NCBI RefSeq assembly: GCF_988242995.1
Contig: NZ_OZ547043.1
DNA: 64,000 bases
Strand: one strand, 5' to 3'
Positions 8,468 through 45,124 of this stretch are shown here, piece by piece. Position 1 is the first letter of the stretch. Each line of letters starts with the position of its first letter. Made by a program: the position numbers and the translations under genes. Below the pieces are notes generated by a model, which did no database searches, was not told the DNA's origin, and was given only the letters and a program-made list of their open reading frames with translations.

Positions 8468-9477
8468 ACGATAAAAAACTTTATATCTCGGACGTCACGT
8501 TGCGTGATGGTATGCACGCCATTCGTCATCAGTATTCATTGGAAAACGTTCGCCAGGTTGCCAAAGCACTGGACGATGCCCGCGTGGATTCGATTGAAGT
8601 GGCCCACGGCGACGGTTTGCAAGGTTCCAGCTTTAACTATGGTTTCGGCGCACATAGCGACCTTGAATGGATTGAAGCGGCGGCGGATGTGGTGAAGCAC
8701 GCCAAAATCGCGACGTTGTTGCTGCCTGGAATCGGCACTATTCACGATCTGAAAAATGCCTGGCAGGCTGGCGCGCGGGTGGTTCGTGTGGCAACGCACT
8801 GTACCGAAGCTGATGTTTCCGCCCAGCATATTCAGTATGCCCGCGAGCTCGGAATGGACACCGTTGGTTTTCTGATGATGAGCCATATGACCACGCCGGA
8901 GAATCTCGCAAAGCAGGCAAAGCTGATGGAAGGCTACGGTGCGACCTGTATTTATGTGGTGGATTCTGGCGGTGCGATGAACATGAGCGATATCCGTGAC
9001 CGTTTCCGCGCCCTGAAAGCAGTGCTGAAACCAGAAACGCAAACCGGCATGCACGCTCACCATAACCTGAGTCTTGGCGTGGCGAACTCTATCGCGGCGG
9101 TGGAAGAGGGCTGCGACCGAATCGACGCCAGCCTCGCGGGAATGGGCGCGGGCGCAGGTAACGCGCCGCTGGAAGTTTTTATTGCCGCCGCGGATAAACT
9201 GGGTTGGCAGCATGGGACCGATCTCTATGCGTTAATGGATGCCGCTGACGACCTGGTGCGTCCGTTGCAGGATCGACCGGTACGAGTCGATCGCGAAACG
9301 TTGGCGCTGGGATACGCTGGTGTTTACTCCAGCTTCCTGCGTCACTGTGAAACGGCGGCGGCGCGTTATGGCTTAAGCGCGGTGGATATTCTCGTTGAGC
9401 TGGGCAAACGCCGGATGGTTGGCGGCCAGGAGGATATGATCGTCGACGTGGCGCTGGATCTGCGCAACAACAAATAA
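8464..9477 (+). CDS. mhpE: 4-hydroxy-2-oxovalerate aldolase
   Basis: 337-aa ORF, recognised MhpE. Confidence 0.93.
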
Positions 9478-9524
9478 TGATGACTGCCGAGAACGTGCAT
9501 TTTGTATGCCCATCCCAGCACGAC

Positions 9525-9560
9525 TGCCGGATGCGGCGTAAACGCCTTGTTCGGCCTACA
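9525..9560. repeat. REP (repetitive extragenic palindromic) element, enclosed by 8-bp inverted repeat tgactgcc (9481-9488) / ggcagtca (9576-9583)
   Basis: tgccggatgcggcgtaaacgccttgttcggcctaca; same family (opposite orientation) as the REP flanking the IS at 12847..12905. Confidence 0.75.
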
Positions 9561-9656
9561 TTTTCTTCGCCCGTAGGCAGTCATTAAATGGTTCTGATTA
9601 CGCGGCTGGCAATGTATCAGCCGCGATTCACCTGCACTCGCAACGAGGTTCATCTT

Positions 9657-11524: not shown

Positions 11525-12740
<1,216 letters not shown>

Positions 12741-12810
12741 AAATCGCGGAAGGGATGAAACAACAGCGCCTGACGGCGCTGTGTCTGGCATGCCTGCAAT
12801 CCGGGAGACT

Positions 12811-12905
<95 letters not shown>

Positions 12906-41694: not shown

Positions 41695-41852
41695 ACACAA
41701 CGCCCATGGAGCAAGTTACAGCGTAAAACGCATAATATTGCTGCGCTAAAAATTATTGCCCGCCGTAGCGAATAATTATATGCCTGGTGTGGCTTCGTAC
41801 GCCGGATAAGACGCGGCAGGCGTCGCATCCGGCATTAAAGGTAAATCAGCAA

Positions 41853-42888: not shown

Positions 42889-43797
42889 GTGCGTATAGGT
42901 ATCGATTTAGGCGGCACCAAAACTGAAGTGATTGCACTGGGCGATGCAGGGGAGCAGTTGTACCGCCATCGTCTGCCCACGCCGCGTGATGATTACCGCC
43001 AGACCATTGAAACGATCGCCACGCTGGTTGATATGGCGGAGCAGGCGACAGGGCAGCGCGGAACAGTGGGGATGGGCATTCCTGGCTCAATTTCGCCTTA
43101 CACCGGTGTGGTGAAGAATGCCAATTCAACCTGGCTCAACGGTCAGCCATTCGATAAAGACTTAAGCGCGAGGTTGCAGCGGGAAGTGCGGCTGGCAAAT
43201 GACGCCAACTGTCTGGCGGTTTCAGAAGCAGTAGATGGCGCGGCAGCGGGAGCGCAGACGGTATTTGCCGTGATTATCGGCACGGGATGCGGCGCGGGCG
43301 TGGCATTCAATGGGCGGGCGCATATCGGCGGCAATGGCACGGCAGGTGAGTGGGGACACAATCCGCTACCGTGGATGGACGAAGACGAACTGCGTTATCG
43401 CGAGGAAGTCCCTTGTTATTGCGGTAAACAAGGTTGTATTGAAACCTTTATTTCGGGCACGGGATTCGCTACGGATTATCGTCGTTTGAGCGGACATGCG
43501 CTGAAAGGCAGTGAAATTATCCGCCTGGTTGAAGAAAGCGATCCGGTAGCGGAACTGGCATTGCGTCGCTACGAGCTGCGGCTGGCAAAATCGCTGGCAC
43601 ATGTCGTGAATATTCTCGATCCGGATGTGATTGTCCTGGGGGGCGGGATGAGCAATGTAGACCTTTTATATCAAACGGTTCCGCAGTTGATTAAACAATT
43701 TGTCTTCGGCGGCGAATGTGAAACGCCGGTGCGTAAGGCGAAGCACGGTGATTCCAGCGGCGTACGCGGCGCTGCGTGGTTATGGCCACAAGAGTAA
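42889..43797 (+). CDS. mak: fructokinase/manno(fructo)kinase Mak (ROK family)
   Basis: ORF 42751..43797; GTG at 42889 after aaggagag RBS gives [14 protein letters not shown]..., 302 aa; ROK Cys motif CYCGKQGC. Confidence 0.9.
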
Positions 43798-43822
43798 AAA
43801 ACGTAGGCAATTGGTGCATCAT

Positions 43823-43912
43823 GCCTGATGCGACGCTTGCCGCGTCTTATCAGGCCTGCAAAATGTGCCAGAACCGCGTAGGGCGGATAAGGCGTTCACG
43901 CCGCATCCGGCA
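43823..43912. repeat. pair of REP elements in the mak-araJ intergenic region
   Basis: gcctgatgcgacgcttgccgcgtcttatcaggcctgc and gtagggcggataaggcgttcacgccgcatccggca; includes atcaggcctgc at 43849..43859. Confidence 0.75.
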
Positions 43913-43939
43913 ATAAGCAACGTGCTCCGTGACTGCAAT

Positions 43940-45124
43940 CTACCCCACTGGTTTCGCCAGCACCGGACTATCCGCCGCTTGCTGGCGCTTATAGCGACCA
44001 TACAGCAGCAACGACGACATCGCAGCAAACGAAAGCAGGGCGGCAGGTAGCGCCACGTAATTATATGCCAGCCCCAGCGTCAGCATCATACCACCGCAAT
44101 ATGCGCCGACGGCGCTACCGAGGTTAAACGCTATTTGCCCACCTGCGGCACCTAATAACTCTCCGCCTTTGGCATTTTGCAGTAACAATATTTGCAGTGG
44201 TGCTGAAAGGGCAAATAATCCCGCGCAACAAATAAATGCAAAAATAAGCGACGTTGTTTTCATGCCGCCGAAGAAAAAGAGCATCAGCAGTGCCAGCACA
44301 ATAATAAAGTCAGTTACTGCCGCAATGCGCAGTGGTGAATAACGTCCTGAAATCCGGCCACTTAGCACATTCCCCAGCACCATCCCTAGCCCAACTAACA
44401 TCATAATAAAAGTCATCGCCGTTTCCGAAAAACCGGAAATAAACATCATGTATGGCTTTACGTAGCTGAACCAGGCAAATACACCTGCGTTGCCAAACAT
44501 GGTGGCGGCGAAAATTAACCACGGGGCCGGGCTGCGCAAAAAGTGAAATTGTTCGCGTAGCTTCCCTTTCGCCTCGTCGCGAATATCCGGCACCCAAAAA
44601 TAGACCGATGCCATCACCGCAATATTAAAAACAGCGATCAATAAAAAGGTGTAACGCCAGCTAAATTCCTGACTTAAATACGTTCCCAGCGGAATGCCCA
44701 GCAAATTGGCGACTGTCATCCCGGAAACCATCCCCGCCACGGCGGCGGTGACTTTGCCGGGTTTGATAATTTTTGATAACACGATCGCGCCGACGCCAAA
44801 AAATGCGCCATGCGGAAAGCCGGAAACCAGCCGACTAATGGCGAGCATCAGGTAAGACGAAGAGAGCGTGAACATGGCGTTGCCAATGACGCACAACGCC
44901 ACCAGAAACAACAAGATATGTTTGAGCGAGTAGCGACTGGAAAAGAGGGCGATGATTGGCGCACCGACCACCACCCCCAGCGCATAATACGAGATCATAT
45001 GCCCGGCAGCAGGAATCGAAATTCCTACGTTATGCGCCAGCTCCGTGAGCACGCCCATAATGCCAAATTCGGCCATCCCCAAACCAAACGTGCCCAGAGC
45101 CAAAGATAAAATGACTTTTTTCAT
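43940..45124 (-). CDS. araJ: MFS transporter AraJ
   Basis: ORF 43940..45208; ATG at 45124 gives MKKVILSLALGTFGLGMAEF..., 394 aa, 12 TM. Confidence 0.9.
   Translation of the reverse strand: MKKVILSLALGTFGLGMAEFGIMGVLTELAHNVGISIPAAGHMISYYALGVVVGAPIIALFSSRYSLKHILLFLVALCVIGNAMFTLSSSYLMLAISRLVSGFPHGAFFGVGAIVLSKIIKPGKVTAAVAGMVSGMTVANLLGIPLGTYLSQEFSWRYTFLLIAVFNIAVMASVYFWVPDIRDEAKGKLREQFHFLRSPAPWLIFAATMFGNAGVFAWFSYVKPYMMFISGFSETAMTFIMMLVGLGMVLGNVLSGRISGRYSPLRIAAVTDFIIVLALLMLFFFGGMKTTSLIFAFICCAGLFALSAPLQILLLQNAKGGELLGAAGGQIAFNLGSAVGAYCGGMMLTLGLAYNYVALPAALLSFAAMSSLLLYGRYKRQQAADSPVLAKPVG

What the first reader, a model, noticed from the sequence alone, without database searches (positions are those of the whole stretch)
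43823..43912. Additional REP copies in the window are near-matches to the IS insertion site
The mak-araJ REP pair contains atcaggcctgc (43849..43859) with CT at the same relative position as the occupied site, and the mhpE-mhpT REP (9525..9560) is the same family in opposite orientation. Both are unoccupied, so actual site choice may depend on specific positions read by the guide loop (atcgggcctta), which matches neither site perfectly. The mhpE-mhpT REP is also bracketed by an 8-bp inverted repeat (tgactgcc/ggcagtca), suggesting a larger hairpin.
Basis: partly seen in the sequence, partly recalled or inferred. Interest (0 to 1): 0.35.

Follow-up and report, generated by a model that had tools for sequence, protein, structure and literature searches.

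The report
REP pair, a known IS621 target
This is an ordinary pair of E. coli REP repeats between mak and araJ; other strains carry IS621 at exactly this spot, but this strain's copy has a one-base change where the element's guide RNA must pair, and all of it follows rules already published.

Summary
Window 43823..43912 is a normal BIME: a Y-type REP (43823..43859, +) and a Z-type REP (43878..43911, -), tail to tail, between the convergent genes mak and araJ.

It is the only unoccupied site in the window within one mismatch of the IS621 target ATC[A/G]GGCCTAC. The difference is G instead of A at position 10.

In 5,426 complete E. coli genomes, 11 carry IS621 at exactly this REP, and all 11 have the AC allele. 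The G allele, found in 2,367 genomes, is never occupied. None of 11,832 IS621 right junctions is followed by G.

The window's own occupied site, ATCATGCCTAC, already had its position-5 mismatch before insertion.

The mhpE-mhpT REP (GTTCGGCCTAC, three left-guide mismatches) is never used. Its flanking inverted repeat is real (9 bp) but looks like part of a copy-number-variable BIME.

Both sites, and the rules, are already in Durrant et al. 2024. The finding is largely correct, but ordinary and already known.

The parts
43823..43859 (+). Y-type REP downstream of mak; carries the IS621-target-like tail
   Evidence: Head GCCTGATGCGACG and tail CTTATCAGGCCTGC. Its hairpin aligns to the REP hairpin of Rfam naRNA4 (41.3 bits, below the gathering score). 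Matches the occupied Y REP at 31 of 37 positions.
43849..43859 (+). 11-mer ATCAGGCCTGC: left target 43849..43855, CT core 43856..43857, right target GC 43858..43859
   Evidence: It is the only unoccupied site in the window within one mismatch of ATC[A/G]GGCCTAC.
43858..43858 (+). Polymorphic base at target position 10: G here, A in the canonical target
   Evidence: The 31-mer with G is in 2,367 genomes and the 31-mer with A in 1,824. All 11 IS621-occupied copies of this REP have A.
43860..43877 (.). 18-nt linker between the two REP tails
   Evidence: Read directly from the sequence.
43878..43911 (-). Z-type REP; its tail ATCCGCCCTAC has two mismatches to the guide
9526..9559 (+). Single Z-type REP between mhpE and mhpT; tail GTTCGGCCTAC (9549..9559) mismatches the left guide at positions 1, 3 and 4
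   Evidence: No IS621 junction with GTTCGGCCT exists in 5,426 genomes. The same region holds 3 REPs in strain 042 and at least 6 in K-12.
9480..9488 (+). Left arm of the 9-bp inverted repeat (ATGACTGCC)
   Evidence: GACTGCC also precedes every Z REP copy in K-12 and 042.
9576..9584 (+). Right arm of the inverted repeat (GGCAGTCAT); it abuts a GTAGGC REP-tail fragment (9573..9578)
11533..11567 (+). Left part of the occupied Y-type REP; left target plus core ATCATGCCT at 11559..11567
   Evidence: The empty allele with the same sequence exists in other genomes.
11568..12846 (+). IS621 copy of a diverged sublineage, 1,279 bp; recombinase ORF 11760..12740
   Evidence: 98.7% best identity to annotated IS621. 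25 substitutions and 2 indels versus the canonical copy. 3 amino-acid differences, with the catalytic residues kept. Removing it restores a 200-bp site that is 100% identical to four genomes.
11631..11639 (+). Left target guide of the bridge RNA (AUCGGGCCU)
   Evidence: Defined in PMC11208158 as A50-U58.
11659..11662 (+). Right target guide (GUAG), which reads CTAC of the target; an optional UGC extension lies at 11656..11658
12847..12848 (+). Right target AC of the occupied site
12865..12897 (-). Z-type REP, partner of the occupied Y REP
41797..41833 (-).

Best explanation
Window 43823..43912 is an ordinary bacterial interspersed mosaic element (BIME): a Y-type REP and an inverted Z-type REP between the convergent genes mak and araJ.

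Its Y REP carries the sequence that IS621 uses as its natural landing site. IS621 chooses sites with its bridge RNA. [quoted passage not shown] The mak-araJ REP is a real IS621 target locus in the species. In this window, however, it carries G instead of A at position 10. That breaks the short right-guide duplex, so this allele is predicted to be a very poor target.

The mhpE-mhpT REP is a Z-type REP with three left-guide mismatches, and it is not a target.

Shown here: the REP anatomy, the allele frequencies and the occupancy pattern. Taken from published work: the pairing scheme. Inferred: that G10 is the reason this copy is refractory.
For: REP and BIME anatomy.

IS621 boundaries: removing 11568..12846 gives a 200-bp site 100% identical to four E. 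coli genomes.

Guide positions: with the definitions in PMC11208160 and PMC11208158.

Occupancy of the mak-araJ REP:
- A chimeric left-junction query found 11 genomes with IS621 at this REP.
- All 11 read ATCAGGCCT|IS|AC, on two flank haplotypes.
- The G allele is in 2,367 genomes and the A allele in 1,824.
- Naive Fisher P = 1e-4.
- Several G-allele genomes carry 9-11 IS621 copies, for example 120899 and 504838.

Species-wide pattern:
- 0 of 11,832 right junctions have G after the core.
- Left junctions: ATCAGGCCT 9,650, ATCGGGCCT 416, ATCCGGCCT 92, ATCATGCCT in 7 genomes, GTTCGGCCT 0.

Published data:
- 129 of 173 experimental sites are ATCAGGCCTAC, and mismatch tolerance is low.
- In the natural-target list, ATCAGGCCTA occurs 610 times and ATCAGGCCTG twice.
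Against: - Emptiness alone says little: the perfect AC allele is occupied in only 11 of 1,835 genomes.
- The 11 occupied genomes are not independent events. Only two flank haplotypes are seen, so the Fisher P value overstates the evidence.
- Allele, phylogroup and IS621 presence were not cross-tabulated.
- The junction counts are places, many inherited from one insertion event.
- The base rate of ...CCTGC versus ...CCTAC REPs per genome was not measured.
- The window's own insertion sits in a site with a position-5 mismatch, so single mismatches are not absolutely excluded.
- No biochemical test of the G10 allele was done or found. Supplementary Table 3 of PMC11208160 is truncated in the library.
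Confidence: 0.85

Rival explanations
1. The window's mak-araJ allele is a fully competent IS621 target, and it is empty only because transposition is rare and perfect sites far outnumber IS copies.
For: - Only 11 of 1,835 AC-allele genomes are occupied at this locus.
- IS621-bearing genomes have a median of 5 matching places, while BL21 offers at least 129 ATCAGGCCTAC sites.
- One natural ATCAGGCCTGC entry in the published list looks genuine (seq315).
Against: - 0 of 11,832 right junctions are followed by G.
- 0 of 2,367 G-allele genomes are occupied at this locus, against 11 with the A allele.
- The right guide is only 4 nt, so one mismatch leaves two contiguous pairs.
- Published screens show low tolerance for single mismatches.
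Confidence: 0.1
2. No new insertions occur in this genome because its IS621 copy, a diverged sublineage, is inactive. Target sequence would then be irrelevant here.
For: - The copy differs from canonical IS621 by 25 substitutions and 2 indels.
- Only one copy is present in the 64-kb window.
- Related variant copies in other genomes are each unique and mutually diverged, and one is frameshifted.
Against: - The ORF is intact, with only 3 amino-acid changes, and D11, E60, D102, D105 and S241 are kept. About 20 substitutions fall in the ORF and most are silent, which suggests purifying selection.
- Both guides are unchanged.
- The RNA folds into the expected three-module shape.
- The rest of the genome was not available to count copies.
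Confidence: 0.15
3. IS621 recognises the REP hairpin as a structure, so any REP of the family is a potential site and the 11-mer details are secondary.
For: Nearly all natural sites lie in REPs.
Against: - Reprogrammed bridge RNAs recombine non-REP targets T1-T7 and single-copy genomic sites.
- Z-type REPs are also hairpins, yet ATCCGGCCT accounts for about 1% of junctions.
- GTTCGGCCT accounts for none.
Confidence: 0.02
4. The 9-bp inverted repeat around the mhpE-mhpT REP forms a functional larger hairpin in the mhp transcript, for example as a stabiliser or processing site.
For: - The repeat is 9 bp perfect, extended to 11 pairs in the RNA fold (z = -3.85).
- Both arms are conserved in 55989, 042 and K-12.
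- Only 3-5% of comparable stretches have such a repeat.
Against: - The distance between the arms varies greatly with the number of REPs: 1, 3 or at least 6.
- GACTGCC precedes every Z REP copy, so the left arm belongs to the repeat unit.
- The right arm abuts a GTAGGC REP-tail fragment and looks like a REP remnant.
- The low fold energy is expected from the REP palindrome itself.
- There are no compensatory changes to test.
Confidence: 0.1

Closest known systems
REP / BIME elements of E. coli (Y-type and Z-type palindromic units)
   Same: - Consensus head and tail.
- Imperfect palindrome of about 35 nt.
- Extragenic position between convergent genes.
- Alternating orientation within a pair.
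- Many copies: 6 in this window.
- Copy-number variation between strains.
   Different: Nothing material. The Z copy at 43878..43911 and the one at 12865..12897 have small tail changes (CCGCCCTAC and CCGCCTAC). The BIME subtype (BIME-1 versus BIME-2, linker motif) was not assigned.
IS621 natural target site specified by the bridge RNA (Choi et al. 2003; Durrant et al. 2024, PMC11208160; Hiraizumi et al. 2024, PMC11208158)
   Same: - The mak-araJ REP is in the published natural-target list with the AC allele, as seq95 and seq96.
- I found it occupied in 11 genomes.
- The CT core and left target ATCAGGC match the guide, with the known rG:dT pair at position 4.
   Different: This window's allele has G at position 10, which mismatches the right guide. 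No IS621 junction with that base was found.
IS1397 / ISKpn1 (IS3-family elements that insert into REPs)
   Same: They also use REPs and BIMEs as specific landing sites.
   Different: They belong to a different family and target by protein, and they are absent here. The element in this window is an IS110-family bridge recombinase.
naRNA4 / REP325 (Rfam RF02564)
   Same: The Y REP hairpin aligns almost perfectly to the second hairpin of the model.
   Different: The score of 41.3 is below the gathering score of 59.5. Only the REP hairpin matches, so this is shared REP ancestry and not a naRNA4 gene.

Membership tests
REP / BIME | Imperfect palindrome of about 35-40 nt with head GCC(G/T)GATGCG(G/A)CG and tail CTTATC(C/A)GGCCTAC | tested here: met
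   43823..43859, 43878..43911 and 9526..9559 match with 0-2 mismatches per half. The hairpin appears in the centroid fold. Rfam naRNA4 aligns to the hairpin.
REP / BIME | Extragenic location | tested here: met
   The mak stop is at 43797 and the araJ stop at 43940. mhpE ends at 9477 and mhpT follows.
REP / BIME | Many dispersed copies in the genome | tested here: met
   Six REPs at four loci in the 64-kb window. A 200-bp query containing two REPs hits a median of 32 places per E. coli genome.
REP / BIME | Pairs or arrays in alternating orientation, with array size varying between strains | tested here: met
   Y(+)/Z(-) at the mak-araJ and yaiL-frmB loci. The mhpE-mhpT array has 1, 3 or at least 6 units in different strains.
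IS621 target site (competent) | CT core at positions 8-9 | tested here: met
   43856..43857 and 9556..9557. Not met by the REP at 41797..41833, which has GT.
IS621 target site (competent) | Positions 1-7 pair with the left guide AUCGGGC (rG:dT allowed at position 4) | tested here: met
   This status is for the mak-araJ site, where ATCAGGC meets the feature. The mhpE-mhpT site (GTTCGGC) does not: it has three mismatches.
IS621 target site (competent) | Positions 10-11 (AC) pair with the right guide GUAG | tested here: not met
   This status is for the mak-araJ site, which reads GC in the window. No right junction in 11,832 places is followed by G. The mhpE-mhpT site does read AC and meets the feature.
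IS621 target site (competent) | Observed occupancy of the same sequence in natural genomes | tested here: not met
   The locus is occupied in 11 genomes, all with the AC allele and none with the window's allele. GTTCGGCCT is never occupied.
IS621 target site (competent) | Recombination with the wild-type bridge RNA in an assay | not testable with these tools
   This needs a plasmid or genome insertion assay. The published single-mismatch table is truncated in the library.
IS621 (IS110-family bridge recombinase element), for the copy at 11568..12846 | 1,279-bp element with a 326-aa recombinase carrying DEDD and S241, a bridge RNA in the left end, and CT at both junctions | tested here: met

The most novel reading that the evidence does not exclude
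REP alleles such as the G at position 10 of the mak-araJ REP might be host variants kept at high frequency because they make individual REPs refractory to IS621. This one is in about 56% of the genomes typed. That would amount to site-by-site escape from a guide-RNA-directed element, rather than neutral REP polymorphism.
Probability: 0.04. Interest if true: 0.35.

Novelty: already known. Interest (0 to 1): 0.12.

Why it matters
It matters little beyond confirmation. REPs as IS621 landing sites have been known since 2003. The guide-RNA rule that explains which REP copies qualify was published in 2024, and both loci discussed here are in that paper's natural-target list.

What this check adds is a population-scale natural control at a single locus. 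The same REP exists as AC and GC alleles in thousands of genomes, and only AC copies are ever occupied. No IS621 junction in 5,426 genomes has G at position 10, whereas left-guide mismatches at positions 4 and 5 do occur. This agrees with the short 4-nt right guide being the least forgiving part of target recognition. It may be useful when predicting which REPs in a strain can receive IS621 or wild-type bridge-recombinase cargo.

Tried and rejected
1. The T at position 5 of the occupied site as decay after insertion. I raised this after seeing canonical ATCAGGCCT flanks in strain 55989. It is rejected: the reconstructed empty site, with ATCATGCCTAC, is 100% identical over 200 bp to four genomes and 99.5% to many others. 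The mismatch therefore predates insertion, and the window's insertion is independent of the 55989/HS one.

2. A left-guide mismatch compensated by extended right-guide pairing (ACG/ACGCA after the core). Three cases suggested it. The published list does not support it: 3 of 7 ATCATGCCTAC sites are followed by G, against 294 of 596 ATCAGGCCTAC sites.

3. Rfam has no bridge-RNA family. There are no hits at gathering thresholds, and only sub-threshold naRNA4 hits on the REPs.

4. No terminator-like or promoter-like sites were found at 43600..44100.

5. The BL21 insertion-site table (Supplementary Table 3 of PMC11208160) is cut in the stored copy. Choi et al. 2003 (PMC166490) is not held.

6. Eleven of the 18 records hit by the ATCATGCCT+LE query are not position-5 sites. 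They are a 47-bp tandem duplication of the IS621 left end.

7. One script output was useless because I compared sequences without aligning them. It was redone with MAFFT.

Full report
**What is at the coordinates.** Window 43823..43912 lies between the stop of mak (43797) and the stop of araJ (43940), two convergent genes. It holds two REPs joined tail to tail.
- A Y-type REP at 43823..43859 (+): GCCTGATGCGACGCTTGCCGCGTCTTATCAGGCCTGC.
- An 18-nt linker.
- A Z-type REP at 43878..43911 (-).

The Y hairpin aligns almost perfectly to the REP hairpin of Rfam naRNA4, at 41.3 bits. That is below the gathering score, so it shows shared REP ancestry and not that gene. The 11-mer ATCAGGCCTGC is at 43849..43859 exactly as reported.

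The window holds six REPs at four loci:
- 9526..9559 (+, Z-type)
- 11533..11567 (+, Y-type, interrupted by the IS)
- 12865..12897 (-, Z-type)
- 43823..43859 (+, Y-type)
- 43878..43911 (-, Z-type)

**The IS used as reference.** An IS621 copy occupies 11568..12846: 1,279 bp, with a 326-aa recombinase ORF at 11760..12740. Joining its flanks with a single CT gives a 200-bp sequence that is 100% identical to four E. coli genomes (SCU-102, 19KM1776, AST215, 7CC) and 99.5% identical to many others, including 042.

This fixes the boundaries. It also shows that the target read ATCATGCCTAC before insertion. I had first suspected post-insertion decay, because strain 55989 carries IS621 at the same intergenic REP with canonical ATCAGGCCT|AC flanks. 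rejects that idea.

The window's copy belongs to a diverged sublineage.
- It has 25 substitutions and 2 indels relative to the canonical element, which is identical in C5, ECOR29 and 55989.
- The protein differs at only 3 residues, and the catalytic residues are kept.
- Both guide segments are unchanged.

**How the guide reads a site.** This follows PMC11208160 and PMC11208158. [quoted passage not shown] G53 forms a non-canonical rG:dT pair with the natural A at position 4.

In the window these segments are 11631..11639 and 11659..11662, with the optional UGC extension at 11656..11658. The encoded target is therefore ATCGGGCCTAC.

**How the window's REPs score against that target.** Only one unoccupied site in the window lies within one mismatch of ATC[A/G]GGCCTAC with a CT core. 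It is the mak-araJ site, which has G for A at position 10.

| REP | 11-mer | Mismatches |
|---|---|---|
| mak-araJ Y REP (+) | ATCAGGCCTGC | position 10 |
| Partner Z REP (-) | ATCCGCCCTAC | two |
| REP at 41797..41833 (-) | ATCCGGCGTAC | no CT core |
| mhpE-mhpT REP (+) | GTTCGGCCTAC | positions 1, 3 and 4 of the left target |

The mhpE-mhpT REP is in the + orientation, the same as the target-bearing Y REPs. It is opposite only to the Z REPs.

**Natural test at the mak-araJ locus.** I built a chimeric query from the mak-araJ left flank joined to the IS621 left end. It found 11 of 5,426 complete E. coli genomes with IS621 inserted exactly there. I fetched all 11.
- Each reads ATCAGGCCT | IS621 | AC AAAATGTGCC...
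- They fall on two flank haplotypes.
- The IS copies are identical to the canonical element or differ by one base.

Exact-word searches with 31-mers show the window's G allele in 2,367 genomes and the A allele in 1,824 unoccupied genomes. Occupancy is therefore 11 of 1,835 for A and 0 of 2,367 for G. The naive Fisher P is 1e-4, but the 11 genomes are not independent events.

Several G-allele genomes carry 9-11 IS621 copies, so the G class is not simply free of IS621.

**Species-wide junction survey.** I used 31-32-nt queries in which only an exact 28-mer can seed a match. The left-junction counts are for the canonical left end (LE).

| Junction tested | Places | Genomes |
|---|---|---|
| ATCAGGCCT + LE | 9,650 | 1,192 |
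| ATCGGGCCT + LE | 416 | 368 |
| ATCCGGCCT + LE | 92 | 83 |
| ATCATGCCT + LE | not counted | 7 |
| GTTCGGCCT + LE | 0 | 0 |

For the right end, the last 29 nt of the IS occur at 11,832 places in 1,316 genomes. No alignment extends into a following G.

These are places, not independent events, and I did not measure the genomic base rate of each REP variant. The pattern still matches the published one.
- In PMC11208160, 129 of 173 experimental sites were ATCAGGCCTAC, and single mismatches were poorly tolerated.
- In its natural-target list, ATCAGGCCTA occurs 610 times and ATCAGGCCTG twice. One of those two is followed by IS621-internal sequence.
- The list already contains the mak-araJ site (seq95, seq96), the 55989-type yaiL-frmB site (seq49) and the window's own occupied site (seq751).

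**Interpretation.** The mak-araJ BIME is a genuine IS621 target locus. This window's allele mismatches the 4-nt right guide at position 10 and is very probably refractory.

That is an inference from distribution data and published mismatch screens, not a direct test. Emptiness alone carries little weight, because even the perfect allele is occupied in only about 0.6% of genomes. The window's own insertion shows that a left-guide mismatch at position 5 can be tolerated. I tested whether extended right-guide pairing compensates for such mismatches and found no support.

**The mhpE-mhpT inverted repeat.** It is real and is 9 bp: ATGACTGCC at 9480..9488 and GGCAGTCAT at 9576..9584. The RNA fold extends it to 11 pairs. 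About 3-5% of comparable stretches have such a repeat.

Comparison with 55989, 042 and K-12 shows that the region is a BIME with 1, 3 or at least 6 REPs.
- Both arms stay at the outer edges whatever the size of the array.
- GACTGCC precedes every Z REP copy.
- The right arm abuts a GTAGGC tail fragment.

I read the arms as parts or remnants of the repeat unit (inference) rather than a dedicated larger hairpin.

In K-12 and 042 this BIME also contains inverted Y REPs carrying canonical ATCAGGCCTAC on the minus strand. The window's contracted version lacks them.

**Verdict.** The biology is ordinary and already published.

Noticed in passing
Its tail has GT where the IS621 core CT would be.
   Followed up: partly
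window 11568..12846; L016, L017, L018: The window's IS621 belongs to a diverged sublineage marked by the target-binding-loop hairpin TTAGGTTTTCAACC. Single, mutually diverged copies occur at hisIE-wzzB (AST215 and N96; target ATCGGGCCTAC, a perfect guide match) and at fre-fadA (MFDS1022581, frameshifted). The canonical IS621 copies are identical across loci and strains, which suggests an old, mostly static lineage beside a recently active one.
   Followed up: partly
L019 1459..1552 (E. coli RM11911, yghU-hybG): This IS621 copy has a 47-bp tandem duplication of its left end (TGTATTATCCC...TTTTCTCTGCCT, twice). The repeat junction falls after TTTTCTCTGCCT, a CT-containing sequence inside the element. 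The same junction 28-mer occurs at 7 places in that genome and in 10 other genomes.
   Followed up: partly
NZ_CP025842.1 (strain 720632) 1887680..1887814: This genome has both the A-allele and the G-allele 31-mers of the mak-araJ REP, 104 bp apart. The mak-araJ BIME is apparently expanded there to two Y REPs with different position-10 bases.
   Followed up: no
window 9478..9656; L013, L014, L015: The mhpE-mhpT intergenic BIME varies from 1 REP (window, 55989) to 3 (042) to at least 6 (K-12 MG1655). In the window's remaining copy the loop and tail are altered (TAAA loop, CTTGTTCGG) in the same way as the last unit of the 042 array.
   Followed up: partly
NZ_CP026085.1 ('DH5alpha', 4.83 Mb): A record labelled DH5alpha carries IS621 at an ATCCGGCCT site, at a position like those in the E. 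coli W-lineage records (W, LY180, KO11FL). K-12 strains are not expected to carry IS621, so the label may be wrong.
   Followed up: no
window as a whole: No genome in the 5,426-genome collection carries the window's exact IS621 copy or junction. The best matches are 98.7% for the element and 97.5% for the junction. The flanks match phylogroup-D-like strains (042, PCN033, AST215), so the source strain is not in that collection.
   Followed up: partly
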